Part shown: one piece after another, positions 36,730 to 63,608 of the stretch | How the letters are laid out: every line of letters starts with the position of its first letter | Position numbering within the stretch: the first letter of the stretch is position 1 | Assembly: GCA_963769215.1 (NCBI GenBank) | Contig: CAVYKX010000019.1 | Coordinates: forward strand, 93,314-157,313 | Direction: 5' to 3' | DNA from: Candidatus Sulfomarinibacteraceae bacterium | Lineage (GTDB): Bacteria; Acidobacteriota; Thermoanaerobaculia; Thermoanaerobaculales; Sulfomarinibacteraceae | DNA length: 64,000 nt | The notes under the pieces: model-generated | Told to the model about the DNA's origin: nothing | Seen by the model: the letters and a program-made list of their open reading frames with translations, nothing else | The model's database searches: none | Program-made: the position numbers and the translations under genes

Positions 36730-39429
36730 ATGGCCGAGCAGGTAAACCGGACAATGCGAGACCTCATCGGTCGCACCCTGGGCCGCTACCGTATCGTCGA
36801 GAAGATCGGTGCAGGTGGAATGGGCGAGGTCTTCCGCGCCCACGACGAACGACTCGATCGGGATGTTGCGATCAAGGTATTGCCTGCGGAGGTGGCCCAA
36901 ACCCGTGACCGCCTGGATCGGTTCGAACGTGAGGCGAGGGCGGTGGCCAAACTCGACCATCCAAACATCCTCGCCATCCACGATTTCGGCACGGATCAAG
37001 GAGTTACCTACGCCGTCACCGAGTTGTTGGATGGTCAGAACCTCAGGCAGTCAATCCCGGCCTCCGGCATGCCGTGGCAAAAGGCGGTGGAGATCGGAGC
37101 GGCCATTGCCGATGGTCTCGCCGCAGCACACGGCAAGGGGATCGTTCACCGCGACCTCAAACCCGAGAACATCTTTCTCACCGCCGATGGGCGAATAAAG
37201 ATTCTGGACTTTGGGCTCGCCCAGGTGAAGGTGCCGGTAGAGGAGGAAGCCGAGACCGCGACCCTCACCCCAGCCGGAACGATTCCGGGGACCGTCATGG
37301 GAACCATGGGCTACATGTCGCCGGAGCAGCTTCGCGGCCAGACGGTCGACGCGCGGTCCGACATACTTGCCCTCGGCTGCGTGCTCTACGAGATGTTGGG
37401 GGGTGTGGCGGCCTTCCGTCGTGGGACGACCGCTGAGATCTCCGCCGCCATCCTCAAAGAGGACCCTCGTGCACTGACGGATTCAGGGATACTGTTACCG
37501 TCAGAGCTCGATCGGACTGTCCGTCGCTGTCTCGAAAAAAGTGCTGAAGCCAGGTTTCAGTCAGCCTCCGATCTCGCCTATGATCTCCGCGCCAATTCTA
37601 CCGCGCCAGCGCCCGTGGCCACTCGCGACGTACCTCACGCCGGTGACCGGAGGAAAGCGATCGCGGGGACCGCCATCGGATTCGTCATCGTGGTCGCCGT
37701 CGTGTTGACGGTCATTCTGAGCGGACCGCTCCGGCGACAGCCGGCCGCACCTCAACCGGAGTTCTCGCCGAATCGAGTCGCCGTGGTGCAGATGGAGAAC
37801 CGGACCGGGGATCCCTCGCTCGATACTGTGGGCATCTTAGCGGCTGACGCGATCGTGCAGCGGTTCACCGAATCTGCTGCCGCCGAAGTAGTGCTGCTGC
37901 TGGATGCGTTGGAGGAGGCTCTATCCACGGAACGGGACAGGGACCAGAGGCGGGGGACGGCCTACCTCCTCGAGCGCGCCCGCCAGCGGGGCGCAGGTCT
38001 GGTGCTTTCCGGTGCATACTACCTGGACGGTGACACCCTGCGGCTGCAGGCGCGCCTCGTCGACGTCGCCACTGGTGATCTGATCCACGCATTCCAACAG
38101 GTGGGCGCAACAAGAGACGCGGTTGCTGACGGCATCGACTCGCTCAGCGACCGGCTTCTGGCGGGGGTGGCGGCGCACGTCGCCCACTACGATTTCGACA
38201 TAGCCGTCATGAGACCCCCTTCCACCTACGAGGCTTACCAGGCCTACCGCCAGGGCGATGAGTTGTTCGGCCCCAACTGGCCAGGGGCCATCGTGCACTA
38301 TCGGCGAGCCTTGGGAATCGACCAGGACTTTCACTTGGCGCGGATACAGCTTGTGTGGTCGCATATCAACATCGACGACTACGAAGGGGCGAGGAATGAA
38401 CATTCGGTCCTGGAGAAGCAACTCGACCGGATGACCCTGTACGAGCGGACCTACGTCCAGTATCAGAAGGCTTTTCTGGAGTGGGATCGCTCAGGTGCGT
38501 TGAACGCGCTCCGTCGTATGCAGGAGCTTGCACCGCAGATACCATGGCATCCACAAGAAATCGCGTTTCGTGCGCTCGAACTGAATCGTCCCAGGGAGGC
38601 CGTCGAAGCGCTTGAGCCCAGCATCGATCGCCCCCATTTCGATTCGGGTGCCGTCCCACAATGGCCCCTCATGAAGATGACATCGGCCCAGCACATGCTT
38701 GGGGACTACGAGCGCGAGCTCGAGTACGCGGGGCTCGGTTTGAAACGCTTTCCAGGCCTCGCCAACTTTTTTTTTGCCAAGGCGCGAGCGCTGGCGGCGA
38801 TGGGGCGGACCGAGTTGGTCGACGAGGTCATCGATGAGTTCCTTCGTGTCCAGACACGCGGCGGGTCGCCTGGGGGACTGATGAGCGCGACTGCCTCGGA
38901 GTTTCGAGCCCACGGCCACCACGAGGCAGCCGATGAGATGGCGGTCCGGTCGGTGAAGTGGTACGAAACCCATCCTTCGGCGCTCCCGGAGGAAAGTGGG
39001 TCCGTCGCCACCGAGTTGTGGATGATTGGCTACCCAGATGAGAGGAAATCCCTTGCCAACGCACTGTGGATAGTCGGGCGCTGGCACGACATCGGCAACC
39101 TCATCGTACGGCCGATCGATACCGGACCGAGCGAGTACAAGTTGGCTGGATGGCTTGGAGTCATCGCCGCCATCAAGGGCGATGACGACCTGGCGGTGCA
39201 GGTTTCTGATGACCTGCCAGTGAGCGACAGCCCGCGAGCGGTTGCTTGGGGGAGGTATTGGCAAGCCTGCATCGCGGCTCATCTCGGAGAAAAGGAGAGG
39301 GCAGTCGAGCTCCTCGCCGAGGCATTCTCCAAGGGCTACCCATTCAGTGTCCTCCTTCACAGCTCCATGGACTTCGAACCCCTCTGGGACTACCCGCCGT
39401 TTGAGGAGCTAATCGAACCGAAGGGATGA
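36730..39429 (+). CDS. Ser/Thr protein kinase with TM segment and large C-terminal TPR/helical-repeat region (STK1)
   Basis: Intact 899-aa ORF with [30 protein letters not shown] and GYMSPEQ. A TM segment ([21 protein letters not shown]) is followed by a helical-repeat tail. Confidence 0.9.
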
Positions 39430-45965: not shown

Positions 45966-48900
45966 ATGCGAGAATTGGTCGGTCGCTCCCTGGGCAACTA
46001 CCGCATCGTCGAGAAGATCGGCGAGGGCGGGATGGGGGAGGTCTACCGGGCTCGCGACGCGCGCCTCGATCGGGACGTGGCGATCAAGGTGCTGCCGGCA
46101 TCGGTGGCCCGGGACGCAGGGCGCATCGCGCGTTTCGAGCGCGAGGCCAGGGCGGTTGCCAGGCTTACCCACCCGAACATCCTACAGATCTTCGAATTTG
46201 GCGAGGACGAGGACGTGACCTACGCGGTCATGGAGATCCTCGAGGGCGAGACGCTGCAAGAGCGGATGGGGCGAGGTCGGCTGCAGTGGCGGGAGGTTGT
46301 GAAGTTCGGTGCCGCGATCGCCGAGGGCGTCGCGGCCGCTCATGGCGAGGGAATCATCCACCGCGACCTCAAGCCGGGGAACGTCTTCCTCACAGCCGAT
46401 GGCCGGGTCAAGGTGCTGGACTTCGGGCTCGCGAAGATCGACGAGGGACCGATCGAGGAGCTGGAGACCATGACCTCACCGCCTCCCGAGACGGCAGTCG
46501 GCACGATGCTCGGCACCGTCGAATACATGGCGCCGGAGCAGGTGCGGGGCGAGAAGCTCGATGAGCGCGCAGATCTCTTTTCCCTGGGGGTCGTGCTCTA
46601 CGAGATGGCAACCGGCAAGCGTCCGTTCGAGGGAGCGACATCGGGGGCCATCCTCGGATCGATCCTCAGCCGGGAGCCGGCGGCCGCCTCGTCGATCAAC
46701 CCTGACCTGCCGGGGGAGCTGGGACGGATCATCGACCGGCTGCTTCAGAAGGAGCGGAGCTCGCGTTACCAGACGGCCAAAGAGCTGTTGGATGAGCTGA
46801 GGCGTGTCGAACGGGATTCAGAGCCTCGACAGGCGGTCGAGACTCCCGTGGCCACTTCCCTGTCCGGCGGTCGGTTCAGTTTTCTGCAGCTCGCGGCTGC
46901 GGCCGCCGTTATCGCTGTGATCGCGCTCAGCCTCTGGCTCACCCTGGGCCGCGAGGGCGTCATGCGCGCCGGCGCCGCGGGGGGTGCTCAAAATGTCATC
47001 GCGGTCATGCCCTTCACCGTGCGCGGCGGCGACGAGGTCGCCTACCTCGGCTCCGGCATGGTCGATTTGCTGAGCGTGAAGCTCGACGGGGCGGGGAGCT
47101 TCACCACCGTCGACCCACACGCAGTCATTCGGGTCGTGGGCTCCGAGGCCGGCGTGATCGATCCCGGCCGGGCCGCAAGCCTGTGCGCCGATCTCGGTGC
47201 CGGGTTGTTCGTGCTCGGCAGCATCGTCGAGGCCGGTGGCCAGCTCCAGGTGTCGGCCTCGCTCTACGGTTCGGACGAGGGTGTCGAAGCCGTTTCCCAG
47301 GGCTCGGCTGAGGGCGCGGTGGACGAGGTCTTCGCCCTGGTCGACGCGGTCGCGGCGCAGCTCCTGGTCGGGCTGAGCGGCGGGCCGGAGGCGCGGGTGC
47401 ACCGCGTGGCCGGCGTCACGACCGAGTCGCTGCCGGCCCTCAAAGCCTACCTGGAAGGAGAGGAGGCCTATCGCGGCGGAGAGTACGCGGCCTCCCTCGA
47501 ACACTTCGAACGCGCGGTCGCCATCGACCCCGAGTTCGCTTTGGCCTACTACCGCATCAGCACCGCCGCCGAGTGGGCCTGGGACGAGAGGCAGATTTAT
47601 GCCGCGGCAGAGCGGGCGGTCGAGCTGGCGGACCGCCTGCCGGAACGAGAGCGCAGGCTGGTAGAGGTCCTGGGAGTGCGCCGGCGGGAGGCGAACGAGG
47701 ATGCAGAGTCCGTTCTCCGCTCGTTCCTCGGGGTCTACCCGAACGACCTCGAGGCCTGGGTGAATCTCGGCGAGCTCGTCAACCACACTCGTCCCATGCA
47801 CGGGCGCTCTTTCCTGGAGGCGCGCGAGGTGTGGGAGCGGGTCCTGAGCATCGACGAGGCCCACACGGGCGCCCTGCTGCACGTCATGCGGATGGACGCG
47901 TTCGAGGGCAAGCTGGAGAGCATGGACACCGGGCTGCGCCGCTTCCACGAGCTGTACCCGAAGGCGGATCGCAGCATCGAGATGGACATCCTTTCGCTGG
48001 CGACGCACGGAAATCCTGAGAGCGAAGCGAAGGCGCTGGAACTTCTGGCCAACGCCTCAGACGTCGATTTGTTGATGGGTGTGTGGAACGCGGCGGTCTA
48101 TGCGCAGCAACTACGATCTCTCCATCAAGCTCTGCGAGATGATGGTCGGCCCCGACCACTCGGTGGCCGTGCGACGGACCGCCTACTCATGGCTCGCGAG
48201 CCTCCAGTATGCGAAGGGGCGATTGGGAGCCATGCGGCAGGCACTGGATTCGCTGGCAGAGGTGGACGCCCTCGCCGGGGCGGAGTACCGCCCGGTGTTC
48301 CTGGGGCTGCCATTCGTGCAGGCCTCCGCCTCGGAGCTGGACTCGGCCTACGCGGATCTGGAGGGACAGCTCATTCCGGAGCCGAAGGAAGGGCCGCAGC
48401 TGATCATAGCTGCCCACGACAACCTGCACCCGCTTCTGCAGGAGTTCGGCTTGGGCAGGCTCGCAGTGTTGCGAGGTGAAAATGAGGTCGTGCGCACGCA
48501 AGCAGAGTTGCTCGCAGCCATGCGGCCCGAGGCCGACCACGAGGGCCTCGCCCAGGATCTCGCTATCGCCTTGCGCGGCTACCTGGCCCTCGCTGCAGAG
48601 CAATCGGAGGCTGCCCTGGAGTACTTCGAGGCCATGAAGATGAGCGCCTGGCACGGCCAGTCGTTGTTCTCTCCCTTTTATGCCCGGACCGCCGAGCGAT
48701 TTGCCCGGGCTGAGGCATTGGAGCTCAGTGGGCGCGGCGACGAGGCGCTCAACTGGTACGAACACCTGGCGGAGAACTCGCCCTTCGAGGTGGCCTACGT
48801 CCCACCCTCGTTGGTTCGTCGGGCCGAGATTCACGCCGAGCGTGGCGAGAACGAACTCGCCATCGATCTCTACCGCGACTTCATCCGGTTATGGGGGGAA

Positions 48901-49889: not shown

Positions 49890-50624
49890 ATGGCGCTCAC
49901 CTGCGGCAATTGTGGGCATCGAAACCGGACGGAAACCCGTTTCTGTACCAAATGCGGAACGGAGATCGAAAAACCGGCCACCCCTCAAACTCCCACCTGT
50001 ACCGACTGCGGTGCCGAGATCCCGGAGGGCAAGAGGTTCTGCACGAAGTGCGGCGCCGGTCGGATTCTCGAGGCCGGGCCGCTCCCGATCCAGACGCTGG
50101 TCTGCGGCTCGTGCGGAAAGGAACTCGCCGCGGATGCGCAGTTCTGTAGCTCGTGCGGCGCGCCGCGGTCGGATGCCAGGACCGCGGTGAAACCACCGCC
50201 GCCGGCAACGCCAAAGCCGGCTCCACGCCCTCAAAAAAAGGAACCGCCCGTCCGGCCCAAACCGTCACCACCGCCCAAGGCGACGGTCGCTCCTCAGGCA
50301 GCGGCTCCAGCGGTGCCTACCGCCCCCGGCGCACATCGCCACAGCCCGGTGGTGGCCCTGGTGTCGGGTTTCCTCGTTCCCGGCGCCGGTCAGGCCTACA
50401 ACGGGTTCCCGTTTCGCGCCTTCTTCCTCCTCATCTTCAGCCCACTCCTGGTGCCGTGGATCTACGGTGTCGTTGATGCCCATCTCTCGGCCAAGAAGAT
50501 CGTCGCTGCAGGTGGCAGGGTTGGCCCCGGCGGATGGCCGTGGATCGGTCTCCAGATGTGGCTCGCCGTCGATTTCGTGCTCTTCCTGCTCATCGTGCTG
50601 ACCATGCGCGGGACGCTGTCGTGA
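49890..50624 (+). CDS. Triple zinc-ribbon, proline-rich, C-terminally membrane-embedded protein
   Basis: Intact 244-aa ORF with three CxxC...CxxC ribbons (CGNCGH..CTKCG, CTDCGA..CTKCG, CGSCGK..CSSCG), a PPPPATPKPAPRP linker and TM segments carrying a GAGQAYNG motif. Confidence 0.6.
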   Translation: MALTCGNCGHRNRTETRFCTKCGTEIEKPATPQTPTCTDCGAEIPEGKRFCTKCGAGRILEAGPLPIQTLVCGSCGKELAADAQFCSSCGAPRSDARTAVKPPPPATPKPAPRPQKKEPPVRPKPSPPPKATVAPQAAAPAVPTAPGAHRHSPVVALVSGFLVPGAGQAYNGFPFRAFFLLIFSPLLVPWIYGVVDAHLSAKKIVAAGGRVGPGGWPWIGLQMWLAVDFVLFLLIVLTMRGTLS

Positions 50625-53620
50625 CCGCCCCGGCGCCCAGGTCGTCGAACCTCGGCTGCCTCGGCTGCTTCTCAATCATCTGCCTGACCTTCGTCCTGCT
50701 GGCGGAGATCGTCGTGGTCGGATTGCTGAATCCGAAGTGGTTCGACCGGATGGCGTTCTGGCGCGGGCCGCGGTACGAGCCGCATATCAAGCTCGTCGAC
50801 GACCCGGAGGCGTGGGCGCGGTTGGAGGCCGAGACGTCCTCGACCAGAGAAGATCCTCTGCCTCCAGCATTGAATGAACCAGTCTCGTTCAGCTTCGGCC
50901 GGATCGCGACCGATTACGATCCCGCTCGCGGTGCGGAGCTGGCCTACTCGGAACGCGCCGCACTTCAGCGTTCCGCCCGGCGCCATCGGCGGCGCGACCG
51001 AGATCTCCATGACGCCGATGCTCAGGGTGCCGGACGAGATGGCGGCTCCCTTTGTCGGTCCGATCGTCGATCTCCGCATCGGCGACCACCAGCACTTCAT
51101 CTTTCGAAGACCGGTCACGCTGACCCTGCCCTACGAAGATGCGGGCGACGGGAATCAACCCTCCATCGGTGTCTGGGAGAACGGCCGTTGGACGGCTCTT
51201 CCTTCAAAGGTCGACCGTGATCAGAAGACCGTAACTGCGGAGCTTCCGCACGCGAGCTACATCGCGCCAATCGCCTATGGACAAACGGTGAACCTGGCCG
51301 CGCGCATCGGTATTGGCGCTGTTGCGGGAACCGCTGTGGGAACCGCGGTCGCCATCATGTTGCCCGTCATAGCCGAACAGTTGCGGGTCGAGCGCAGGCG
51401 GTGGCAATTCGTTGGGCCTTCTGTTGATGAGTATGAAACCCCACGGGGGAACTTCAAGTCCGTATGTCTCGACCACCGGCAAGGATGCGGTTCCGGATGA
51501 TGACGCGTTTCGCTCGGCCAGCATCTTCAACGAACGGACCTCCGGACGGCTACCCGCTCTACGTCAGATACCTCGGGAAACAGCTCGAGGACTGCCGACC
51601 GAGTTCAACCGGATGGGTCTCGAAGTTCCGGTGGCCAGGCTCATCCGGTACGACATCTTCGTTCAAGATTTGAAAGGCCCGCCGGGTCTGGCGCGGCTCG
51701 GTGGCCCCTTGTTTTTCTCATCCAAGCTGCTCACGCTCAATGGCGCGGACAAAAGGCTCGCGGATCAGACGGTCCGATTTATCGTGGCCAAAGATCTGAC
51801 CTATGTCGCGTTGGACGAGCATTTCAACAGGTGGACCTTAGGCCCTTCGATGTGGTTTACCGAACTTGTCTCCACACTACATCAGCTTTTCCACTACTGG
51901 GAAGATCAAGGGCAACCGATCCACGACCTGTTCGGGGTATACATCAAGGGGAGGCTGCGGTTCTTATTGCTGCGTCCGATGGACGGAGGCCGTGTGCCCT
52001 GGTACGGGTACTCGCTGTTTCCGCGGTGGATCGACCGGACGTTCTGGCCGCGGAGCGGGTCCATGCCTCCTGACCTCATGTGAAAGTTGGCTCGGAAAAT
52101 CTGTCGAGCTCAAAGACCTCGACTCGGCGATCAAGGCGACCCTGAAGTCTCCAAACACGGGTCTGGCCGATGTGTTCACCCCGTTTCTCGCTGGATTTCT
52201 ATCACAACGACCTGTGGGGAGGAGATCGGAAGTCTGAGTCCCTGACGACGGCAATGTTCCCGCGGTGGAATAGGCATGCCGCAGCCGAGGCGTTGTCGTT
52301 GACCCCGCACAAATTCTTGCGAGTCACGTACCCCTCACCCGTCGATTACCGCAATCTGGTCAATCTCTGGGAATCACACGAATTCGGGGACAAGGTCAGA
52401 AACGGGCGTCGCTACCTCCCCCATCTCTCGGCCGAGGCCGCGTATATGCGTGTGGGGCGCTTCCCCTCGACTCAGAAAGCGAAGCTCGTCGTTCGGTACG
52501 CAACACACCGAGCTGCCGTCGCCGGACCTGGCGGTGTATTTTGCCGAGGGTCAGTGCGTTGGCGTCCCGCCTTATTCCGGCTCCCATCGCGAGGCCTGGG
52601 CGGGGTTTCCTTGAAGGCCGGCGAGCTCCCGATGTTTATCGTCGACCGCGTGGCCAGGAGGATCGACCGAACTGCGCGACGGTCATCGCGGTCAATCGCT
52701 CGCTCGACACATCCGTCAGGGACCGGGCGTCGAGCGCTGGCTGCTGCTTCCCCCGGAGGATGTCACATTCTGGCGAGAGGGAGAAAACCACTGGCAGGTC
52801 AAGTGGAAGGAGGCCGCCCTCAAGAAGAAAAAGGAAATCTGGGGCGAATACCAGGTGTGGCGAAAAAAGGTCGGGGAGCCGGATGGACGCCGCTGGGTCG
52901 ATCGAACACCGAACGAATACTACTCCTGGGGCGCAGGGCGGGCTGAACCCCGACGACTATGTCTTCACGGTCAGCGTCATCGACGCCTTGGGCAACGAAA
53001 GCCACCCGGCTCCCGTTCCCGACCGGGATCCGTTCGTCGGTAGCTGGTCCGGTTTCATCCGCGAGGAGCACGGCCTGTACATCACCGAGAGCACCGGCGT
53101 GATCGACACGATCTATCGCCAGAAGATGGAGGAGGCGCGGGCCAAGATCCAGCGGATGCCGGTGGGCACGATGCAACAGCACAAGTGAGCAACGAGGAGG
53201 AAAGCCTGAAATTCGTGCAGGGTCTCCTCGGTGAGCTGGTGGGCGTGTTGAAGCAGGCGGCTCCGGTAGCTTCGACGGTTGTCCGCAAGCCGGGGGTGCC
53301 GGTTGCGCTCAACATCAGGCGTTTCGAAGGGGACTACTCCCTGACCGTGAAAAGCGTGGCGGGAATGCCGGTTTCTGATACAACTCGTGGACATCCCGCT
53401 CGAGCCCGATGGTTTTCTCAGGCTCAAGATGCCCTCGGGTTCGAAGCTGCTGTCGGGAGCACCACTACTCTCACCGCGCGACAGCTTCATCGAGTCGCCC
53501 GGTGATCTCAACCGAAAGTACGTCGATCCGGAGACCGGAACCGTGTACGACTTCACCTTCAGCTGGACATTCGGTCGCGAGGGTGAATCACAAATCTCCA
53601 GTCTGCTCAAGGGAATCTTA
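50621..53620 (+). pseudogene. Paralogue A of an about 1000-aa N-terminally membrane-anchored protein; HExxH position reads KDLTY; about 10 frame breaks; 3' end uncertain
   Basis: The GTG at 50621 overlaps the upstream stop (GTGA). The sequence is traced through ORFs 50534, 50874, 51412, 51866, 52170, 52541/52855, 53185 and 53387. It aligns colinearly with paralogue B (for example NFK.RYVSTTGKDAVP versus HFRIHYTDTGGNAVP, and FYHNDLWGGD versus FHFDLWRGE). Confidence 0.5.
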
Positions 53621-53686
53621 AATGAGATCAACCTCGAATTCGGGTTCGTTCTTTTCTTCGGGGCGAGTCGTCATGACGCTTCTCCC

Positions 53687-56583
53687 ATGAACACCGACGT
53701 CTCCAAACGGTCCGGTCTCGGCTGTCTCGGCTGCTTCTCGATCATCTGCCTGACCTTCGTCCTGTTGGTGGAGCTGGCGGTTGTGTGGTGGTTGAACCCG
53801 ACGTGGTTCGACCGCGTGGCGTTCTGGCAAGGGCCCATCATCCCACCCGATGTGATCCTCGAGGAGGACCCCGGTGCGCGCGCAGTTCTGGAAAAGGAAA
53901 TCGCCGCGTTGCAAAAACACACTCGTCCGAAGATCATTGGCTCACAGCCGGTGTTGATCGAGGGCAACGCGGTCGAGACAGATTATGATCCGGCCAGGGG
54001 TGCGGTACTTGAGACGAAGGAAGGCGCGACGGTGCGTTTTCCACCAGGAGTTCTACCGCGACCAGGCCAGGATTCGGTTGACTCCGGTTGCTTCATTGCC
54101 TGACGAGGCCCTTATGGCGGGTTTCAGCAGGTCAGGCCTACCGTCATACCACATCCTGGTCGATGGCAAAGAGCACTCTCAATTCAATCGGCCGGTGAGT
54201 GTTTCCCTCCCTTTCAATCCTGATGCCGTGGAAAACCCTGATGACCTTTCAAAGGTGGCGGTCCACGTGTGGTCGGACGGCCGCTGGCATCGGTTTCCCT
54301 CTCGCGTCGACGTGACTCGACGAATCGTGACCGGCGACATCGGTTTCTCATCGGTCATCAGCGGCGGAGGCTTCTCGGAAACCATGGTCTGGCAGGTGGG
54401 CGGGCGCATTCTCCGTATGTCGTCGGCGGTGGCGGTGGGGCGTACGTCGTTTCGCCGCAGTTTCGAGAGTTCTTGACTAGCAAAAAGCTCGACAAGATAC
54501 ATGAGACGACGCATTTCAGAATTCACTACACCGATACGGGAGGGAATGCCGTGCCAGCCACGTCGCCTGTCGCGCCTGCGACACCGGTGGCAGGGAAGCC
54601 AGACATGGTCGTGGCAATCGGCGAGTTTCTGGAGACAAGCTTCAGCGGGTTGGGGAGAGTCAAGATGGCCCTTCCTCCCCCAGAAGACCTGCTCCCCGTC
54701 ATGTTGCTTCCCTTGTCGGGCCCTGGCTCGATGAGAGTTCTCGGTGACACCAACCTCGGCGGAGCCATCATGATCACGACGGCCTGGCAAGGAGCAGCCC
54801 GCCGCATCCCGGTCGGGGACTTGATGCGCGGGACGGCGTGCCACGAGCTGATTCATCTTTCTCAAGGGCAGTTCTTCTCAAATAAGGAGGCCAAGAAGGC
54901 GGGGTGGTGGTTCGAGATGACTGCGCCCTATCTTTCGGATCGAATGTGGCAAGCGCTGGGACGTCCGACCGGAGAGGTCGGCGAGTACATGTTGGTTCAA
55001 GAAGCTCGTTCTCTCCAAGACCCCGATGTTCCTGGCAACCGGAGACGATAAGTACAGGTATGCGACGTTTCTCCGTTTTCTCGAGGAACAGGGCGATGTG
55101 ATCGCGGCCGTGGAGGCGGTGAACAAAGGCGGAAGCGCGACTCCACAGAGACTCGACGCGGCGCTCCGCACGACGATGAAGAGGTCGCTGGCGGGGCTGT
55201 TTCACGATTTCGCCCTGGAGTACTTCCATTTCGATCTGTGGAGAGGTGAGATCCTCGCGCCGGATCTTCATTTCGGAAACAGCGCCATCAAACAGGCGAA
55301 CACCATGGCGCCGTACGAGCTGCCATTTGCCTTCGTGACCCGTGCGCCAACTAGTGGGGAACAGGCCGGTGTCATCGGTCAAATCAACCTTTTCGCTTCC
55401 ACGACAATTGATGCGCTCAAACCGCTGACCGCAGCCGGCCTGCCGGTACATATCCAGGTCATGCCGGAGAACAGACGAGGAAAGCTGATTTTCCTCTTTG
55501 AACCGCTCGGTCCGCTCAATCTCGACCTCACGGCATCCTACGTCGCCGCCACGGTAGGCGCCGCGTTGCCCGCGCAGGGAGAGACGCGCGGGACGCCCGT
55601 ATCGATCGAGTTGAAACGACCGTCATCCCAGGTCGAGGTGCGGAACATCGCCTCGCCAGGTGGATTCGATCGTGTAAACGTCGTCGTCAGCAATGGGTCA
55701 CTGGACACTTCGGCGCCTCGTCTCAGGGTCAGTCGCTGGGCCCTATTGGCCCCCGAGTGGGTGCGGTCGAGCGAAGAGCCCGGATCGTGGTCTTGGCAGG
55801 TGAGGCTGGAAAAAAAGTGGCTTGAAGGATCCGAAAATTCCGAAGGAGGTCTTCAGCCATTACGAGGTGTGGGAGCGGTTGGCGAGCGAACCGTACGAGG
55901 CCTTCCGATGGGCAAAAGATGTGCGAAAGCCCGATAGCCACGAGAAACCATCTACAAAACGTCGACATGTACGACGGCCAGGACCGGGTCTTTTCTGTGC
56001 TCGTGGTGGACGGGCATGGCAACAAGAGCGCCCTGTTCGAGCCGGAGGATACTGATCCGTTCCAGGGCATCTGGGAGGTACTGTTCGGCTGACCTCGGGA
56101 TCGGCGGTGAAGCCGGTGGTCACTTTCATGCGCCAGGCAGCGGTGGCGTTTCCCTACAACCAGCGAATGCTCGAGATCAGCAGAATGACTCGTGGTGCCG
56201 ATCAAGCGGCCCACGAGTGGGCGGAGTGGCGCCAGATGCGTGATTCCATGATTGACCGGTCAAGAGTTCGGGAGGTTCGTCGAGTTCGGCCTCCGGTTCG
56301 GGGTGCCGGTCACCTGCGAGCTGTTCCGGGTGGACAACAAGTACTCGGTGGTCGTCCGCGAGATTGGTAAGAAAAAGGTCTTCATGCGTGAGGACGCGGC
56401 GATTCCGCTCCGATAACGTTGCCAACAACACCCTTGCTCTTGATCAGCAAGACATCGCCATTCAACTTGAGAAGCAACCACAGCCGTTCCGGGAGTTTGT
56501 GGTGACTGGGAAAACGTGACGGGAAAATCGTGGGGCATGTGGTCGGTGACAGCCGGACCGAGAGCGGGGGCCGTGTAGTCTGA
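53687..56583 (+). pseudogene. Paralogue B: membrane-anchored putative MA-clan (gluzincin-like) metallopeptidase, HELIH at 54842-54856 and Glu at 54914; about 8 frame breaks; 3' end uncertain (56416 or 56583)
   Basis: Begins MNTDVSKRSGLGCLGCFSIICLTFVLL... The sequence is traced through ORFs 53387, 53985, 54269, 55026, 55822 and 56107 and shifted frames. The motif TACHELIHLSQGQFFSNKEAKKAGWWFEMTAPY gives HExxH-X19-E spacing, close to the HExxH-X18-E of gluzincins. Confidence 0.5.
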
Positions 56584-56604: not shown

Positions 56605-57431
56605 TCAGTCGATCGAAATGAGGCGGACGTTACAGCTCCGTTTCCTGCAGCCACCGCCTCTCGCAAGCATCTGAACGATGTCGTCGAATCCGTTCTGGCG
56701 CGCGATCGTCAATGCGGTCCGGCCCGAGTTGTCGCGCGCATTGGGGTCGCCGCCATAGTCGAGCATCATTTCCACGGTGTCGGGCTCGCCGGCGTCGGCC
56801 GCCTCCATCAGGGGAGTGAAGCCCTGATGATCGCGGGCGTTGGGGTCGGCGCCCGAGGTCAAGAGCACGTCGACGACCATCGGATCAATGGCGTAGTGGA
56901 GGGCGGTCCTGCCGTCCCCGTCGGTTCCGTTGACATCGGCCCCGGCGGCGGCCAGGGTGCCGACGATGTCGATGTCTCCGCTGAGCACCGCCATGACCAG
57001 CGGGATCTGGCCATTTTCGTCGCGGGCATTGGGGTCGGCGCCGCGGCCGATCAAATCGAGGACCCGCTGGACAGGGCCCTCGAGCGCGGCTGCGATGAGC
57101 TCATCGGTGCTCGCCCGGGAAGAACCGTGGCTTCTTCGACGGCCTGGTAGACCTGCTCTCCGAGGTCGCCCGTCTCGGCGCCCGTGCCCAGGTCGATCGC
57201 CATCGTCTGAGTGCCATCGGCGGGAATTTGCTGCCTCGCCTGGGGCGGGCGCTGAGGTTGATGGCGAACTTCCTCTGCGGCCTGCTCCCGCACGTCGATC
57301 CCCTGAGGAGAACTGCTCGCCTCGTTTTCCCCGACGTACCGTTCGGGAGGATTGTCTGCTTGGCTCTCGTCCGCGTACGGGTCTTCATACGTGGAACCCG
57401 CTTCGTTTTCCGAATCCGCCGGATCCCGCAT
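56605..57431 (-). CDS. Ankyrin-repeat protein with acidic N-terminal region; frame break near 57110
   Basis: ORF 56605..57054 has 3-4 ankyrin repeats (GADPNARDENGQIPLVMAV, GADVNGTDGDGRTALHYA, GADPNARDHQGFTPLMEAA, GGDPNARDNSGRTALTIA). The upstream part is in ORF 57051..57431. Confidence 0.7.
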
Positions 57432-58146
57432 TGACAGCCTCGTTCAATGAGGAGTAGGTCGTACCCTCGTTTTCATAACCCGAGGCCAGATTGGATGCGG
57501 ACCGGCTGATGAAGCGGTATCCGGCTACGGCAATGATCAGCATGACCACCACCGCAGCCACGCCGACGATAGCGACGACCGGTTTGGGCATTCCTGAAGC
57601 CGCGCTTGGCACCGCCGCGACAGCCTGGGGGATGGCCTGGCCGCATTCGCCGCAAAAGGCATCGTCGGTTCCGATGCCTGCGCCGCATGACGGGCAGCTC
57701 GTGGGCCGCTCCGCCGGTGGGGGAGTGGATGTGTCGGCGGTTTGGCGGGGGGCCGAGGGTGCCGCACTCTGTGCCCCGCTGAAGGCGAGATAGGCCGGCA
57801 CCGCGAGTCCCACGACCGGGACGATGAACAACAGTCCGATCCAGCCCGGTTTGCCCAACACCTTGGCGATGTCCATCCACAGGACAACGATTACGACGAA
57901 ATTGACCAATGGGACGAGTGCGAGCACGATCCACCAGTCGGGGCGCCGGGCGATGCGGCACATGAGCACGAAGTTGAGCACCGGCACCCAGGCCATCCAG
58001 GGGTTCGGGACGCCGGCCCGTTTGGCGATCAGCATCAGCATGGCGCAGAAGTATGCGTAGAAGAGCAGGCCGAAGATCATCATGGTCCCGAAAGCGGCTC
58101 CGAGACCGGGCAGAGCATCGACACCGGATTGCGGCAGCGTCTCCAT
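57385..58146 (-). CDS. Membrane protein (DUF5684-like TM bundle) + zinc ribbon + extra TM; possibly the N-terminal part of the ankyrin protein
   Basis: 253-aa ORF with PNPWMAWVPVLNFVLMCRIARRPDWWIVLALVPLVNF, CPSCGAGIGTDDAFCGECG and VVAIVGVAAVVVMLIIAVAG. Its 3' end overlaps the next ORF in another frame. Confidence 0.55.
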   Translation of the reverse strand: METLPQSGVDALPGLGAAFGTMMIFGLLFYAYFCAMLMLIAKRAGVPNPWMAWVPVLNFVLMCRIARRPDWWIVLALVPLVNFVVIVVLWMDIAKVLGKPGWIGLLFIVPVVGLAVPAYLAFSGAQSAAPSAPRQTADTSTPPPAERPTSCPSCGAGIGTDDAFCGECGQAIPQAVAAVPSAASGMPKPVVAIVGVAAVVVMLIIAVAGYRFISRSASNLASGYENEGTTYSSLNEAVNAGSGGFGKRSGFHV

Positions 58147-58302
58147 CGTGACCCCCTTGCTGTGAGTGAATCGATTTTATGGGCATTTGCAGCTATTGCA
58201 AGTATGGCTTCGTTTTTAAAGACAGATTCTCAATCGCAGATATGATTCTGGCACATGTATGATGACCGTACAGAACATGAAAGACATCGGGAGGACGGGT
58301 CG

Positions 58303-59445
58303 ATGAGACGCTGGAATCACTTTGCACTTCTCTGTGTCGCCGTGATCGTGGGATCGAGCGTTGGCCCATGCTCCGCTGAGCAGTGGTCCGATCTCGGCAT
58401 CAAAGCCAAGGATGTGTCCGTCTCCGGCGCCACAATGTGGGTCATCGGAGAGGATGACCGGGTGTACTTCGCCACGAGCTCCGGCTGGCAGCCGCATGCA
58501 ACGGTACTGACCGGCGCAACGGTCATCGATGTCGGGCCGGATCAAAAACCGGTGGTGGCCGGTCCGTCGGGCTGGAAGATATACAAGAGCAACGGCTCGA
58601 GCTGGTACGAGATCCCCGGCGCCACCGCATCCAGGATTTCAGTGGACGCCCAGAACCGTCCGTGGATCTCGTGGGGCGGTGGCCGGCACTTCCACTACTA
58701 CGACGGCCAGGGGTGGAAGAACGCCAACATCGGCTACGGGTTGGGGATCGAGAGCAATGCCGCCGGCGTCATGGCCGCCATTGGAAACGGCGAAGGGCCA
58801 CATCGAATCACCAACGGCACGTGGCAGAACCTGGGTGCGCAGAGTGGCATGAGAGTCGTCGACCTCGACATCGATGGCCGTGGCTATGTGTGGGTGGCCG
58901 ACAACGGGGGCAATCTCTTGAGCTACGACGGCAGCCAGTGGCGGCGGCACCAGCCGCCCCAGGGAGCGGTCCGGGTGTCGGTCTCCGAAGCCGGTCAGCC
59001 GGTGGTGCTCGGGCGCGACGCCCGCGTCTATATCTGCACGGACTGCGTCGGCCAGGTGGCGCCACCGCCGCCCCAGCCGACCGTCGCCCCGCCGCAGGTC
59101 AACCGCCCGCCCAACGCCCCAACCGTAGAACCGGGAGGGTTTGAGCCTCCGTTCCCCATCGGCTACGAGGGGGCGATCCACCTCTCGTGGCGAAACAACG
59201 GCGACCCGGACGGCGACCCTCTCGCGTTCTGGATCGAGATCTGGTTCTGGCATCCGACCCAGGGACAGTGGGTCCAGATGAGGAGTGAATGGGTGACCGG
59301 GACCACCACCTACACCTTGACCATCAACAACGGCCTGGTGGCGAATATCCACTATGCGTGGCGGGTGGCCGCGTGCGACACTGGCCGCAGAAGTGATCCG
59401 TGGTTTGTCTGGAGCAACTACTCCGTTTTCAAGACCGCCCAGTGA
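58303..59445 (+). CDS. Secreted beta-propeller repeat protein (tectonin-like W-x-G repeats) with proline linker and FN3-like C-terminal domain
   Basis: GGGAGG then ATG at 58303. Signal peptide MRRWNHFALLCVAVIVGSSVGPCSA. Repeats of the type W..(I/L)G....VS.....WV.G.D..VY recur about 6 times. The linker is PPPPQPTVAPPQVNRPPNAP and the C-terminus is ...HLSWRNNGDPDGDPLAFWIEIW...YAWRVAACD. Confidence 0.5.
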   Translation: MRRWNHFALLCVAVIVGSSVGPCSAEQWSDLGIKAKDVSVSGATMWVIGEDDRVYFATSSGWQPHATVLTGATVIDVGPDQKPVVAGPSGWKIYKSNGSSWYEIPGATASRISVDAQNRPWISWGGGRHFHYYDGQGWKNANIGYGLGIESNAAGVMAAIGNGEGPHRITNGTWQNLGAQSGMRVVDLDIDGRGYVWVADNGGNLLSYDGSQWRRHQPPQGAVRVSVSEAGQPVVLGRDARVYICTDCVGQVAPPPPQPTVAPPQVNRPPNAPTVEPGGFEPPFPIGYEGAIHLSWRNNGDPDGDPLAFWIEIWFWHPTQGQWVQMRSEWVTGTTTYTLTINNGLVANIHYAWRVAACDTGRRSDPWFVWSNYSVFKTAQ

Positions 59446-60764: not shown

Positions 60765-61244
60765 ATGGTCGACGACAATCTGGGCTTTTTCCGAGTTGAA
60801 ATCGAAATGGCGCTCGAGGGTGTGGTGGAAATCGACGCCGATGACGAGGGCTCTGTGAAAATGGCGAATGGGTACTACCAGCTCTTCGGCGTAACGGGAT
60901 CGAGCTATGCCGAAGCGGTGGCCTTTGTCGAGAATGCCCTCGCCGAGATCGTGACGGCCGAAACTCAGGCCCCCGGGTGGCTGGTCCAGCTGCAGGTCGA
61001 CACCTGGAGCGAGCCCGCCTCAGACGAGGAGGGGGAATTCCTTCAAGACCCCTCGTCGCGCGGGGTGCACTTCATTTCCGACCGCGCGTATTTTCTGGCG
61101 CTCGACGAACCGGATGACCTGACATATCCCTCCCATCGGTGCCAGGGAAAACAAAGCCGGCAGACGCGACCGTTCAACTTGAGACCTTCCAACGATAAAA
61201 GGGTCTGGTCTGGGTTACCATTGTGGCCGAGAACCCGACAATGA
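60765..61244 (+). CDS. Hypothetical small acidic protein directly upstream of, and overlapping, STK3
   Basis: 159-aa ORF with a GGAGG RBS. A truncated paralogue lies at 44838. No family recognised. Confidence 0.4.
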
Positions 61245-63608
61245 AGGACCTCATCGGTCGCACGCTCGGCCGCTACCGCATCGTCGAGAAGATCGGCGCA
61301 GGCGGGATGGGTGTGGTCTACCGAGCCCGCGACGAACGGCTCGATCGAGATGTCGCGATCAAAGTGCTGCCGCGAGGAGGTCGCGAGACGCCGATCGGGT
61401 CGCCCGGTTCAAGCGCGAGGCCAGGCCGTCGCCCAGCTCGACCACCCGAACATCCTCGCGATCCACGACTTCGGAACCGACGAGGGGGTGAGCTACGCCG
61501 TGACCGAGCTCCTCGAGGGCAACAATCTCCGCGAGGGAATTCCGGCCTGGGGAATCGGTGGCAGAAGGCGGTCGAGATCGGCTCCGCGGTCGCCGAAGGG
61601 CTGGCCGCAGCGCACGGCACGGACATCGTCCACCGAGACCTCAAACCCGAGAACATCTTCCTCACCACGGACGGGCGCGTCAAGATCCTCGACTTCGGTT
61701 TGGCCCAGATGAGAGAACGGTCGACGAGGATGCCGAGACGCTCACGATCACACCGGCCGGCACCGTGGCCGGGACCGTCATGGGCACCGTCGGATACATG
61801 GCCCCGGAGCAGGTGAAGGGTGAGCCGTCCGACGCCCGGTCCGACATCTTCGCTTCGGGTGCCTGCTGTACGAGATGGTGTCGGGGCAGCAGGCCTTCCG
61901 GCGCAACAGCACCGCCGAGATCCAGGCGGCGATCCTCAAGGAGGAGCCGCCGTCGCTGACGTCCTCGGCGTCGCCCTCCCGCCGAGCTCGAGCGGACGAT
62001 CCGGCGCTGCCTCGAGAAGACTCCGGAAGCGCGTTTCCAGTCGGCTTCCGACCTCGCCTATAACCTCAAGTCGATCTCGACCGACCAGGCCGTTCCGGTG
62101 GCGGCACCGGCAGAAGCGAACAAGAAATGCTCGTGACGGTGCTGCCGCCGTAGTGGGTCGTGGCGGTGGTCGCCATTCTCCTGGTCACTGGGAAATTCGG
62201 TTTCGATCGGTCGGGCCGGACCAGCCCGCGATTCGCTCGATCGCGATCCTTCCCCTGCAGAACCTGACCGGCGACCCGGAGCAGGCCTACTTCGTCGACG
62301 GCCTGCACGAGGAGCTGATCGCCACCTTCGCCCAGATTTCCGCCTTCGACAAAGTGATTGCTCGTACCTCGGTGCTGGCATTCAGGGACTCCGGTACTCC
62401 GGTTCGTGAGATCGGCAGACAGCTCGGGGTTGATCTGGTCGTCGAAGGGTCGGTGCGGCGCTCCGGAAACACGGTGCGCACGACCGTGCAGCTGATCGAC
62501 GCGAGACCGAGAACCACCTGTGGGCAACAGCTTCGAGCGCGACCTCACCGATATCCTGGCGCTGCAGAGTGACGTTGCCCGGGCGGTCGCTAACGAGGTC
62601 GAGCTGGCGCTGACGCCCGAGGACAAGGCACGCCTCGCAAGTGCCCCCCAGGTCAATCCCGAGGCCTATGAGGCCTATCTCAAGGGCATGTCTCACCTGT
62701 ACAAGCTGACTCCACCGGATCTCGATGCCGCGCTGCACTACTTCGAACAATCTCTGGAAAACGATCCCGATTATGCTCTTGGGCTATGCAGGGGTATCGT
62801 TCGTCTGGGTCGGCCGCCAACAAATGGGATTGGTCATCCCCAGCGAAGCGACGCCGAAAGCGAAGGCGGCGGCACAGAGGGCCCTCGAACTGGATGACAC
62901 GCTGCCGGAGGTTCACTACACGTGGGCTGCCATCAAAACATGGAGCGACTGGGACTGGGAGGGAGGAGAGCAGGAATTCAAGCGGGCCCTCGAACTCAAA
63001 CCGAACTTTGCGGAAGCGCTCGTGTACTACTCGCACCTGTTGTGTTACATGGGTCGTCTGGATGAAGCGCTGGAAATGGCAGAGAGAGCCGTACAGCTGG
63101 ATCCGCTCAACTCGATCATCCTGACGATCTCTGGAGTCACCTTCGGGTACCTGGGCCGTTATGACGAAGCCATCGAGCGGCACAAACAGGCCCTCAGGAC
63201 ATCACCCAATGATCCCGTAGCTCATAATTCGCTCTGGGAAACCTATTACAAAAAGGGAATGTATGAGGAATCTCTGAATTCAGCCAAAGCGTTTTTCACA
63301 GGACTGGGCTTGAATGAGATCGCGGAAGTCATGGCACAGGGATATGAGGAAGATGGCTACGGTGGGGCGATGATGTCCGCAGCCGAGACCATGGAGGCGT
63401 TTTCGAAGCAGACCTATTTTTCACCCACGTTCATTGCCATGATCTATGCCTTGGCTGGGGATCGCGAGAAAACCATCGAATGGCTCGAGATGGGATATGA
63501 AATGAAAGACCCCAACATGCCGTATGCTGGGTTCATTCTTTCGATCTCCTGGACGATGACCCGCGGTACCAGGACCTGCTCCGGCGGATGAACCTCCCGG
63601 ACGACTGA
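61223..63608 (+). pseudogene. Ser/Thr protein kinase + TM + TolB-N-like + TPR region (STK3), at least 8 frame breaks; kinase domain closely paralogous to STK1
   Basis: Pieced together from ORFs 61223, 61311, 61558, 61875, 61820, 62520 and 62725 and a final shift to ...DDPRYQDLLRRMNLPDD* (63608). Kinase motifs [24 protein letters not shown] and GYMAPEQ are present, as is IAILPLQNLTGDPEQAYFVDGLHEELI. Confidence 0.75.

What the first reader, a model, noticed from the sequence alone, without database searches (positions are those of the whole stretch)
49890..56583. Uncharacterised operon: triple-zinc-ribbon membrane protein plus two tandem about 1000-aa membrane-anchored paralogues, only one of which keeps a metallopeptidase motif
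The zinc-ribbon gene stop overlaps the start of paralogue A (GTGA at 50621-50624), and paralogue B follows after about 65 nt. A and B are colinear along their whole length, as shown by hand-aligned blocks in several frames.

B carries TACHELIHL...WWFEM (HELIH at 54842-54856, Glu at 54914). This gives HExxH-X19-E spacing, close to the HExxH-X18-E of gluzincins. At the same place A reads VAKDLTYVA...MWFTEL (KDLTY at 51790-51804), so both His and the catalytic Glu are replaced.

An active enzyme paired with a dead paralogue, both anchored by a single N-terminal TM helix and coupled to a zinc-ribbon membrane protein, resembles a dedicated protease/pseudo-protease module. I cannot assign it to a known system.
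Basis: partly seen in the sequence, partly recalled or inferred. Interest (0 to 1): 0.7.

Follow-up and report, generated by a model that had tools for sequence, protein, structure and literature searches.

The report
Membrane zinc-protease pair with small partner
Three same-strand genes encode a small zinc-ribbon membrane protein and two large membrane-anchored relatives of zinc proteases, only one of which keeps the catalytic motif; they belong to a rare, uncurated family, and the many frame breaks in the two large genes look like sequencing errors, not gene death.

Summary
A 244-aa protein with three zinc ribbons and three TM segments (49890-50624) overlaps by GTGA the start of paralogue A. 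Paralogue B follows. A and B are colinear at 30% identity. B has HELIH-X19-E; A has KDLTY at the same place.

As given, A needs about 15 frameshifts and B about 10, with no in-frame stop. radA, a kinase and an ABC ATPase in the same window are broken the same way. A 90%-identical metagenome contig reads through the one testable site. A versus its intact orthologue gives dN/dS 0.24. I read the breaks as assembly indel errors.

An exhaustive HMMER search found about 40 intact homologues of 900-1040 aa, from Acidobacteriota and Planctomycetota MAGs. None has a Pfam family. All eight tested hit NCBIfam MXAN_6640_HExxH far below its cut-off.

AlphaFold models plus Foldseek give this order: N-terminal TM helix, ZU5/GAIN/FIIND-like domain, gluzincin-like catalytic domain, beta-sandwich, FN3, C-terminal domain. 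H-x-(S/C) is conserved at the end of the ZU5-like domain, which suggests self-cleavage.

The small partner's membrane module sits directly upstream in 10 of 12 other loci. A tandem A+B pair occurs only here. The closest syntenic relative has only the dead A-type gene.

The parts
49890..50624 (+). Partner gene, 244 aa. Three cytoplasmic zinc ribbons (49902-49955, 49998-50051, 50103-50156), a Pro-rich linker, and a C-terminal three-TM module (about 50338-50621) with the motif PGAGQAYNG.
   Evidence: The ORF is intact. Pfam Zn_Ribbon_1 and DZR hit; DUF6677 and DUF5683 hit only below threshold. The membrane module lies directly upstream of the large gene in 10 of 12 other loci.
50621..50624 (+). 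GTGA: the partner's TGA stop overlaps the GTG start of A (translational coupling).
   Evidence: Read. The same overlap is seen in L002, L004, L006-8, the P0009 locus and L016.
50621..53586 (+). Paralogue A, about 990 aa: a pseudo-peptidase broken by about 15 frameshifts as given. TM helix 50658-50728. ZU5-like domain 50894-51266, with H-A-S at 51249-51257. Gluzincin-like domain 51383-52325, with KDLTY at 51790-51804. Beta-sandwich 52326-52761. FN3-like 52762-53071. Helical hairpin 53078-53292. C-terminal beta domain 53296-53578.
   Evidence: Frameshift-aware alignment to the intact orthologue P0030: 60% identity over 940 aa and no in-frame stop. Domain borders were transferred from the P0007 model. 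dN/dS is 0.24.
53688..56578 (+). Paralogue B, about 950 aa: catalytic motifs intact, broken by 9-10 frameshifts as given. TM helix 53732-53794. ZU5-like domain 53963-54383, with F-S-S at 54345-54353 in place of H-x-S. Gluzincin-like domain 54444-55337, with HELIH at 54842-54856 and Glu at 54914-54916. Beta-sandwich 55338-55760. FN3-like 55761-56097. Helical hairpin 56104-56247. C-terminal beta domain 56252-56548.
   Evidence: Frameshift-aware alignment to P0007, P0008 and P0009: 43% identity. B's HELIH-containing fragment found the whole family. NCBIfam NF045524 hits B at E 3.8e-4. Domain map.
57385..58146 (-). DUF5684 plus zinc-ribbon membrane protein: a recurrent neighbour and a possible accessory component.
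   Evidence: Pfam DUF5684 at E 4.4e-13. A homologue lies next to the large gene in L005 and in L006-8. No functional link is shown.

Best explanation
The locus encodes a membrane cassette that recurs in Acidobacteriota and Planctomycetota.

The small partner has a variable cytoplasmic N-terminus, here three zinc ribbons, and a conserved three-TM module. It is translationally coupled to a large single-pass, N-in membrane protein. The outward-facing part of that protein runs, in order: a ZU5/GAIN/FIIND-like beta domain, a gluzincin-type zinc-peptidase domain (HExxH-X19-E), a beta-sandwich, an FN3 domain, a helical hairpin and a C-terminal beta domain.

This genome carries two diverged large paralogues in tandem.

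- B keeps the zinc site and is the presumptive active endopeptidase.
- A has lost both zinc-binding His and has Asp for the catalytic Glu. It is still under purifying selection, so it acts as a non-catalytic (binding or scaffold) subunit or as an independent pseudo-enzyme.

The roughly 25 frame breaks are consensus indel errors of the assembly, not biology.

Shown: the homology, architecture, motifs, partner linkage, selection on A, and the fact that the breaks are not local to this locus.

Inferred: the outside topology, physical association of partner and large protein through their conserved TM segments, peptidase activity of B, and self-cleavage at H-x-(S/C) that would leave the protease ectodomain held non-covalently on its membrane stub. 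I give self-cleavage about 0.4 on its own.
For: Family.
- Exhaustive phmmer with window:54416-54994 returned 46 hits. About 41 are 900-1040 aa proteins matched at the same relative position.
- H376, E377, H380 and E400 are conserved in 40-41 of 41 sequences. The spacing is X19 in 26 of 41.
- All eight homologues tested hit NF045524 at E 4e-6 to 5e-12.

Fold.
- The P0007 model has pLDDT 86.6. Its Foldseek PDB hits include IRAP, ERAP1, aminopeptidase N, tricorn F3, EryP, lugdulysin and FN3 domains.
- The P0047 model has pLDDT 83.4. Its top 18 hits are all from the ZU5 superfamily: ankyrin, UNC5b and ZO1 ZU5 domains, adhesion-GPCR GAIN domains and the NLRP1 FIIND. Against the isolated ZU5-ANK domain, TM is 0.60 and rmsd 3.7.
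- H-x-(S/C) occurs in 38 of 39 sequences, with Ser/Cys exchange. It lies between the last two strands of the model.

Topology.
- All members have a strong N-terminal hydrophobic helix preceded by Arg or Lys. A second hydrophobic stretch is weak or absent in half of them.

Partner.
- Its membrane module lies directly upstream in L001-L013 and L016, often with overlapping stop and start.

A is alive.
- Its orthologue P0030 is an intact 1004-aa protein reading RELTN at the motif.
- pN 0.256, pS 0.62, ratio 0.24. Neighbouring genes give 0.11-0.23.

Breaks are errors.
- 25 indels and 0 nonsense codons.
- radA, an STK kinase (about 9 breaks per kb), an ABC ATPase and a MlaD-like gene are broken too.
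- L002, about 90% identical in DNA, is in frame where the window has one extra base near 50960.
- The syntenic relative is a Nanopore-only Flye/Medaka MAG, and it has its own breaks in other genes.
Against: - No reads are available, so the indels are not proven to be errors.
- The break sites are not enriched at homopolymers (8 of 25 against 24% at random). Extra bases outnumber missing ones 16 to 9, which is not the classic Nanopore signature.
- I do not know the window's own sequencing platform.
- The structure models are of homologues (P0007, P0047), not of A or B.
- The match of H-x-S to the known cleavage site rests on its position in the model's secondary structure, not on a residue-level superposition.
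- Many ZU5 domains, such as ankyrin's, do not self-cleave.
- B and P0007 lack the His of the motif.
- Two loci (L014, L015) lack the partner.
- A-type occurs without B in the relative, so an obligate A/B complex is unlikely.
- No substrate is indicated.
Confidence: 0.7

Rival explanations
1. A and B are real pseudogenes: a decaying duplicated locus in a genome that is losing genes.
For: There are about 25 frameshifts in 6 kb. The sites are not homopolymer-biased and insertions exceed deletions. GC is slightly lower over B, 0.594-0.605. B is absent from the syntenic relative.
Against: A and B have no in-frame nonsense codon among about 1,900 codons despite 25 indels. From general knowledge, real bacterial pseudogenes mix both kinds of lesion. 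Essential-type genes such as radA, and a kinase, are hit in the same indel-only way. The coding pattern of divergence is kept: codon positions 1-3 diverge by 0.31, 0.22 and 0.51, and dN/dS is 0.24. A close relative is intact at the one testable site.
Confidence: 0.1
2. The large proteins span the membrane twice. The ZU5-like domain would be a periplasmic loop, and the peptidase and downstream domains would be cytoplasmic, close to the partner's zinc ribbons.
For: A hydrophobic, Gly/Ala-rich stretch follows H-x-S in many members, with Kyte-Doolittle 1.6-2.0 in A, P0007-9, P0011, P0017 and P0030. Its pLDDT is below 50.
Against: That stretch falls below the threshold in B, P0014, P0018, P0021, P0025, P0035 and P0042, and it often contains Arg or Lys. 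FN3 and beta-sandwich domains, and ZU5/GAIN-type tethers, are typical of extracytoplasmic proteins (general knowledge).
Confidence: 0.12
3. A and B form an obligate heteromer, a protease with a pseudo-protease, with a division of labour. A would supply the self-cleaving tether and B the catalysis, all dedicated to the zinc-ribbon partner.
For: The two genes are in tandem on one strand behind one partner gene. Their losses are complementary: A keeps H-A-S and lost HExxH, while B keeps HELIH and has F-S-S. From general knowledge, active/inactive subunit pairs are known in M16B peptidases and in mitochondrial processing peptidase.
Against: No other locus has a tandem pair. The nearest relative has A-type alone. 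A and B come from different subclades and each is at least as close to proteins of other genomes as to the other.
Confidence: 0.2

Closest known systems
NCBIfam NF045524, MXAN_6640 family putative metalloprotease (HExxH domain)
   Same: It is the only curated model that hits the large proteins. It covers the HExxH region and the following helices, profile positions about 100-245 of 290. E is 3.8e-4 for B and reaches 5e-12 for homologues.
   Different: Scores are 20-46 bits against a cut-off of 140. The model covers one domain of about 290 aa. Whether its members have the TM helix, ZU5-like domain, FN3 or partner gene is unknown to me. I found no paper that mentions MXAN_6640.
M1 aminopeptidases (IRAP, ERAP1, aminopeptidase N, tricorn F3) and other gluzincins (EryP; lugdulysin, M30)
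   Same: They are the best Foldseek matches to the family model. They share HExxH plus a Glu on the next helix, and a beta domain before and a beta-sandwich after the catalytic domain.
   Different: There is no GxMEN exopeptidase motif. The spacing is X19, not X18. There is no Pfam Peptidase_M1 hit. Global TM is only about 0.2. The domain before the catalytic domain is ZU5-like.
ZU5 superfamily self-cleaving modules (PIDD and UNC5CL HF|S, adhesion-GPCR GAIN HL|T, NLRP1/CARD8 FIIND F|S; bacterial ZU5 'releasing' domains of surface proteins, Zhang et al. 2012, PMC3482391)
   Same: The fold match is strong. H-x-(S/C) is conserved at the end of the domain, between its last two strands. The paper notes ZU5 domains in large bacterial surface proteins that carry enzymatic domains.
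   Different: No Pfam ZU5 hit. The middle residue is small (Ala or Cys), not Phe or Leu. There are none of the Cys residues of the GPS motif. Cleavage is untested. Here the domain sits between a TM anchor and a metallopeptidase.
Active/inactive subunit pairs in metallopeptidases (M16B heterodimers, mitochondrial processing peptidase alpha/beta); recalled from general knowledge, not tested here
   Same: Tandem paralogues of which only one keeps the zinc motif.
   Different: A different clan and fold. In those systems the pairing is conserved and obligate, whereas here the pair is seen in one genome only.
Small membrane proteins of the TM2 / DUF5683 / DUF6677 type
   Same: The partner shares the PGxGQxYNG-type motif at its first TM segment. 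JGI labels one homologue 'TM2 domain-containing membrane protein YozV'.
   Different: All Pfam scores are below the gathering threshold and cover only about 28-60 residues.

Membership tests
Gluzincin (clan MA(E)) zinc metallopeptidase | HExxH zinc-binding and catalytic motif | tested here: met
   B has HELIH at 54842-54856. The motif is conserved in 40 of 41 family members. It is not met in A (KDLTY) or in its orthologue P0030 (RELTN).
Gluzincin (clan MA(E)) zinc metallopeptidase | Third zinc ligand Glu on the following helix | tested here: met
   B has WWFE with Glu at 54914-16, 19 residues after the motif. The column holds Glu in 40 of 41 members. The spacing is X19 in 26 of 41. It lies on the helix after the HExxH helix in the models.
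Gluzincin (clan MA(E)) zinc metallopeptidase | Thermolysin-like catalytic fold | tested here: met
   This was tested on the homologue P0007, not on B itself. Foldseek gives M1 aminopeptidases at E 4e-6 to 1e-3, EryP, and lugdulysin at TM 0.39 over 294 columns.
Gluzincin (clan MA(E)) zinc metallopeptidase | Zinc binding and peptide-bond hydrolysis | not testable with these tools
   Needs purified protein.
NCBIfam NF045524, MXAN_6640 family | Score at or above the curated cut-off of 140 bits | tested here: not met
   20.3 bits for B and 26.6-46.1 bits for eight intact homologues.
Peptidase family M1 | GxMEN exopeptidase motif, HExxH-X18-E spacing, and a Pfam Peptidase_M1 hit | tested here: not met
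   No G.MEN in A, B or any family member, and X19 predominates. No Pfam hit.
ZU5 superfamily | ZU5/GAIN/FIIND beta-sandwich fold | tested here: met
   The top 18 Foldseek PDB hits of the P0047 model are from the ZU5 superfamily. TM is 0.60 and rmsd 3.7 against ZU5-ANK. UNC5b also hits the P0007 model. No Pfam ZU5 hit at the sequence level.
ZU5 superfamily, self-cleaving members | His-x-Ser/Thr/Cys at the turn before the last strand, and actual cleavage | tested here: inconclusive
   The motif is present in 38 of 39 members and in A (H-A-S at 51249-57), with Ser/Cys exchange. B has F-S-S and P0007 has Q-A-S. The position was inferred from the model's strands. Cleavage itself cannot be tested here.
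Pfam TM2 / DUF5683 / DUF6677 (partner protein) | Score at or above the gathering threshold | tested here: not met
   The best score is DUF5683 at 24.7 bits against 26.7, over the first 28 profile positions only.
Pseudogene | Disabling lesions that are real, with relaxed selection | tested here: inconclusive
   Lesions are present in the given sequence. They are indel-only, they are shared by housekeeping genes of the window, one is contradicted by a close relative, and dN/dS is 0.24. Reads are not available.
Known anti-phage defence systems (PADLOC) | Significant hit to a PADLOC model | tested here: not met
   No hit better than E 0.0025, with no supported stretch.

The most novel reading that the evidence does not exclude
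The family is a bacterial counterpart of the GAIN/FIIND principle. The ZU5-like domain would cut itself at H-x-(S/C). The zinc-protease ectodomain would then stay on its one-helix membrane stub only through the last beta-strand. It could be shed or switched on by a signal passed through the coupled three-TM partner, whose exchangeable cytoplasmic heads (zinc ribbons, FHA-like, GYF) read the cell's state, for example Ser/Thr-kinase signalling. In this genome the two jobs would have been split between paralogues: A keeps the cleavage motif and B the catalytic site.
Probability: 0.2. Interest if true: 0.8.

Novelty: new variant of a known kind. Interest (0 to 1): 0.5.

Why it matters
If the reading is right, this is an uncurated family of about 950-aa membrane-tethered zinc peptidases in Acidobacteriota and Planctomycetota. 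It has no Pfam family and only far-sub-threshold NCBIfam hits.

It joins three things not usually seen together: a ZU5/GAIN-like module with a conserved His-x-Ser/Cys, a gluzincin domain, and a dedicated small membrane partner with swappable cytoplasmic heads. That makes a concrete question testable: do bacteria use self-cleaving ZU5-type tethers to hold and release surface proteases?

It also supplies a natural pseudo-enzyme lineage, A and P0030, that is under purifying selection.

On the practical side, a run of frame breaks in a MAG should be checked against the rest of the contig before a gene is called dead.

Tried and rejected
- The word-indexed protein searches found little. B's middle part and an A/B/L001 alignment returned only fragments of this same contig. 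A search with the partner's TM module found two short JGI proteins.
- The first genome-contig scan, with the A/B alignment, found nothing, not even the source genome. The 41-sequence alignment was too diverse to scan with.
- Pfam gave nothing on fragments, on reconstructed A and B, or on intact homologues. PDB sequence searches gave only weak FN3 matches at E about 0.1. PADLOC gave nothing.
- The window's own proteins are not on record in the look-up of encoding contigs, so the source record and sequencing platform stay unknown.
- The promoter and terminator scan found no more than shuffles do.
- The homopolymer test of the frameshift sites was negative.
- Programmed frameshifting was rejected: about 25 irregular sites of both signs, absent in homologues.
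- A lipoprotein signal was considered and rejected: LGCLGC precedes the hydrophobic core instead of following it and does not fit a lipobox.
- A second TM helix was considered and judged unlikely.
- No paper mentions MXAN_6640.
Full report
**1. What is in the sequence**

The zinc-ribbon gene at 49890-50624 is an intact 244-aa ORF. It has three CxxC-X(10-12)-CxxC ribbons at 49902-49955, 49998-50051 and 50103-50156. Pfam gives Zn_Ribbon_1 at E 3.6e-21 and DZR at 6.7e-18. The hydrophobic C-terminal third gets only sub-threshold DUF6677 and DUF5683 hits.

Its TGA overlaps a GTG at 50621 (GTGA).

tblastn of B's frames against A's DNA gives a 51%-identical N-terminal block (111 aa, E 2e-34) and further colinear blocks. 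After frame correction the two proteins align end to end at 30% identity.

**2. Neither large gene is an ORF as given**

The ORF list shows only fragments of 60-340 aa in alternating frames. A codon-usage path needs about 13 shifts in A and 10-11 in B.

Alignment to intact homologues refines this. A against P0030 gives 60% identity over 940 aa, about 15 frameshifts and no in-frame stop inside the gene. B against P0009 and P0008 gives 43% identity, 9-10 frameshifts and no in-frame stop.

A's last frame stays open from 53351 into B. A TGA at 53584-86 lies one base out of frame after GGG, and it would end A where P0030 ends.

**3. Are these dead genes?**

I think not, for five reasons.

- The lesions in A and B are indel-only: 25 indels and no nonsense codon in about 1,900 codons.
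- The same damage appears elsewhere in the window. radA (1841-499, minus strand) has 2 breaks. A Ser/Thr kinase (61199-62207) has about 9. An ABC ATPase (34619-33719, minus strand) and a MlaD-like gene (3345-1863, minus strand) are also broken. Other genes of 800-900 aa are clean.
- L002 is a JGI metagenome contig about 90% identical in DNA. It reads through the first break; the window has one extra base near 50960.
- A against the orthologous gene in L005 gives pN 0.256, pS 0.62 and ratio 0.24. Divergence at codon positions 1-3 is 0.31, 0.22 and 0.51. Neighbouring genes give ratios of 0.11-0.23.
- L005/L012, the syntenic relative, is 'Candidatus Sulfomarinibacteraceae bacterium MFD03804.bin.1.185'. 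This is Acidobacteriota, class Thermoanaerobaculia. [quoted passage not shown] L005 has its own breaks in other genes.

There are caveats. The break sites are not homopolymer-enriched, and extra bases outnumber missing ones 16 to 9. I could not identify the window's own record. I put real pseudogenes at about 0.1.

**4. The family**

Word-indexed protein searches returned only this contig's own fragments. An exhaustive phmmer search with B's HELIH-containing fragment (window:54416-54994) against 1.84 billion representatives gave 46 hits. About 41 of them are 900-1040-aa proteins matched at residues of about 250-430.

They share the following:
- an N-terminal GCLGCF TM helix;
- WLNPxWFDRxAFWRGP;
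- a beta domain ending in H-x-S;
- FxIHY;
- HELxHVxQ...WWxExTAxYL;
- RWLLLxP, GYNVYRR, DYVYTVxVVDxxGNES and DPFxGxW;
- a C-terminal RxGxP...WxFxR.

Pfam finds nothing. NCBIfam NF045524 (MXAN_6640_HExxH) hits all eight tested at E 4e-6 to 5e-12, but at 27-46 bits against a cut-off of 140. B itself scores 20 bits. So these are distant relatives of that domain, not members.

Named sources are MAGs of Acidobacteriota and of Planctomycetota, including Phycisphaera.

**5. Architecture**

An AlphaFold2 model of P0007 with the 41-sequence alignment has pLDDT 86.6 and pTM 0.78. Foldseek against the PDB returns:
- M1 aminopeptidases (IRAP at E 3.6e-6, ERAP1, aminopeptidase N, tricorn F3);
- the lanthipeptide peptidase EryP;
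- lugdulysin, family M30 (TM 0.39 over 294 columns);
- UNC5b (rmsd 4.0 over 157 columns);
- many FN3 domains.

A second model covers the N-terminal half (P0047, pLDDT 83.4). Its top 18 hits are all from the ZU5 superfamily: ankyrin, UNC5b and ZO1 ZU5 domains, adhesion-GPCR GAIN domains (BAI2, BAI3, CD97) and the NLRP1 FIIND. TM is 0.60 and rmsd 3.7 against isolated ZU5-ANK.

In the family alignment H-x-(S/C) is present in 38 of 39 sequences: H-A-S 24, H-C-S 8, H-L-S 3, H-S-S 1, H-A-C 2 and H-T-C 1. In the model the His ends the penultimate strand and the Ser precedes the last strand. From established knowledge, that is where PIDD and UNC5CL (HF|S) and GAIN (HL|T) cut themselves. Zhang et al. 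2012 already proposed ZU5 self-processing for large bacterial surface proteins with enzymatic domains (PMC3482391).

The residue-level equivalence and the cleavage itself are untested.

On hydropathy, all members have one strong N-terminal helix. A second, weaker stretch after H-x-S is present in only about half. I therefore favour an N-in, single-pass topology with the domains outside.

**6. A versus B**

B keeps HELIH and the Glu, but has F-S-S (54345-53) where the family has H-x-S.

A keeps H-A-S (51249-57), but reads KDLTY where B has HELIH. Its orthologue P0030 is an intact 1004-aa protein reading RELTN. Among 41 aligned homologues only P0030 lacks the two His.

Both changes lie inside unbroken frame segments and need several base substitutions, so they are not indel artefacts.

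A's nearest relatives are P0030 (51-60%), then P0042 and P0026 (36-37%). B's nearest are P0012, P0009 and P0013 (about 32% over the full length). A and B are therefore old paralogues from different subclades.

**7. Gene neighbourhood**

The partner's C-terminal module (...HSPxxAL...PGxGQAYNG...PW...GGRxGxGG...LIVLTLxGV) lies directly upstream of the large gene in L001, L002, L003, L004, L005/L012, L006-8, L009, L010, L011, L013 and L016. Stop and start often overlap. In the P0009 locus the upstream gene is a 164-aa GYF_2 protein that overlaps the start; its C-terminus could not be read.

The partner's N-terminus varies: three zinc ribbons (window, L003, L004, L005), two (L006), one (L011), FHA-like (L010, L013), GYF_2, or none (L001, L009). 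L014 and L015 lack the partner; L015 has a vWA-like gene instead.

No locus has a second large copy within the flanks.

L005 is syntenic with the window. It carries the partner, A-type, Ank, DUF5684 and tectonin genes, but A's stop abuts the Ank gene and B is missing.

A DUF5684 plus zinc-ribbon membrane gene recurs nearby in three lineages.

**8. Reading**

The conserved unit is two genes, the partner and one large ZU5-gluzincin protein. It is not the three-gene set.

This window adds a second, catalytically competent paralogue behind a pseudo-peptidase that is itself conserved and under selection.

The most likely mechanism is a membrane complex. It would be assembled co-translationally through the conserved TM segments and would present a zinc endopeptidase on the outer face. 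The partner's cytoplasmic head would act as an exchangeable adaptor. Ser/Thr kinases and FHA proteins are frequent neighbours, but that link is only circumstantial.

Self-cleavage at H-x-(S/C) is a specific, testable addition.

**9. Novelty and score**

The catalytic domain and the ZU5 fold are known kinds. The family, its domain combination and its dedicated partner are not curated anywhere I could search. I file it as a new variant of a known kind.

Interest is 0.5. It is raised by the GAIN-like tether idea and the conserved pseudo-enzyme. It is lowered by the poor sequence quality at this locus and by the fact that the striking active-plus-dead pair is seen in a single genome.

Noticed in passing
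window 499-1841 (-), 1863-3345 (-), 33719-34619 (-), 61199-62207 (+): radA, a MlaD-like gene, an ABC-transporter ATPase and a Ser/Thr kinase are each split by frameshifts on a codon-usage path that shows no in-frame stops. The kinase has about 9 breaks in 1 kb. Several genes of 750-900 aa in the same window are clean, so indel errors come in patches.
   Followed up: partly
window 57385-58146 (-); L005 13477-14442; L006 11146-12138: A DUF5684 membrane protein with a C-terminal zinc ribbon lies close to the large gene in three separate lineages. It may belong to the same system.
   Followed up: partly
window 51249-51257 and 51790-51804 (A); 54345-54353 and 54842-54856 (B): The losses are complementary. 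A keeps the H-A-S motif of the ZU5-like domain but lost HExxH. B keeps HELIH but has F-S-S instead of H-x-S.
   Followed up: partly
window 53570-53690: A has no stop in its own frame, and the frame runs open from 53351 into B. A TGA at 53584-86 is one base out of frame after GGG (53581-83). It would end A at ...FGREG, the position where the orthologue P0030 ends.
   Followed up: yes
L005 9321-10100: The Nanopore-derived relative has its own defects. The partner gene has an in-frame TGA (WP*IGLQ), its first zinc ribbon is out of frame, and the called N-terminus of P0030 (SAASVASRS) is the frame-shifted reading of LGCLGCFS.
   Followed up: partly
window 36730-39429, 45966-48479, 61199-63591 (+); 56605-57054 (-); 58255-59445 (+): The neighbourhood is rich in Ser/Thr kinases with TPR tails, and it also holds an ankyrin-repeat protein and a tectonin-like protein. 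L004 has an FHA plus double-zinc-ribbon gene right after the large gene.
   Followed up: no
L015 2591-3823: In the locus of P0012, one of B's closest relatives, the upstream gene is a 410-aa vWA-like soluble protein with a Pro-rich tail, not the three-TM partner.
   Followed up: no
window 52000-56000: GC is slightly lower (0.594-0.605) than in most of the window (0.62-0.68), over the 3' part of A and most of B. Together with B's absence from the syntenic relative, this could mean B was inserted in this lineage.
   Followed up: no
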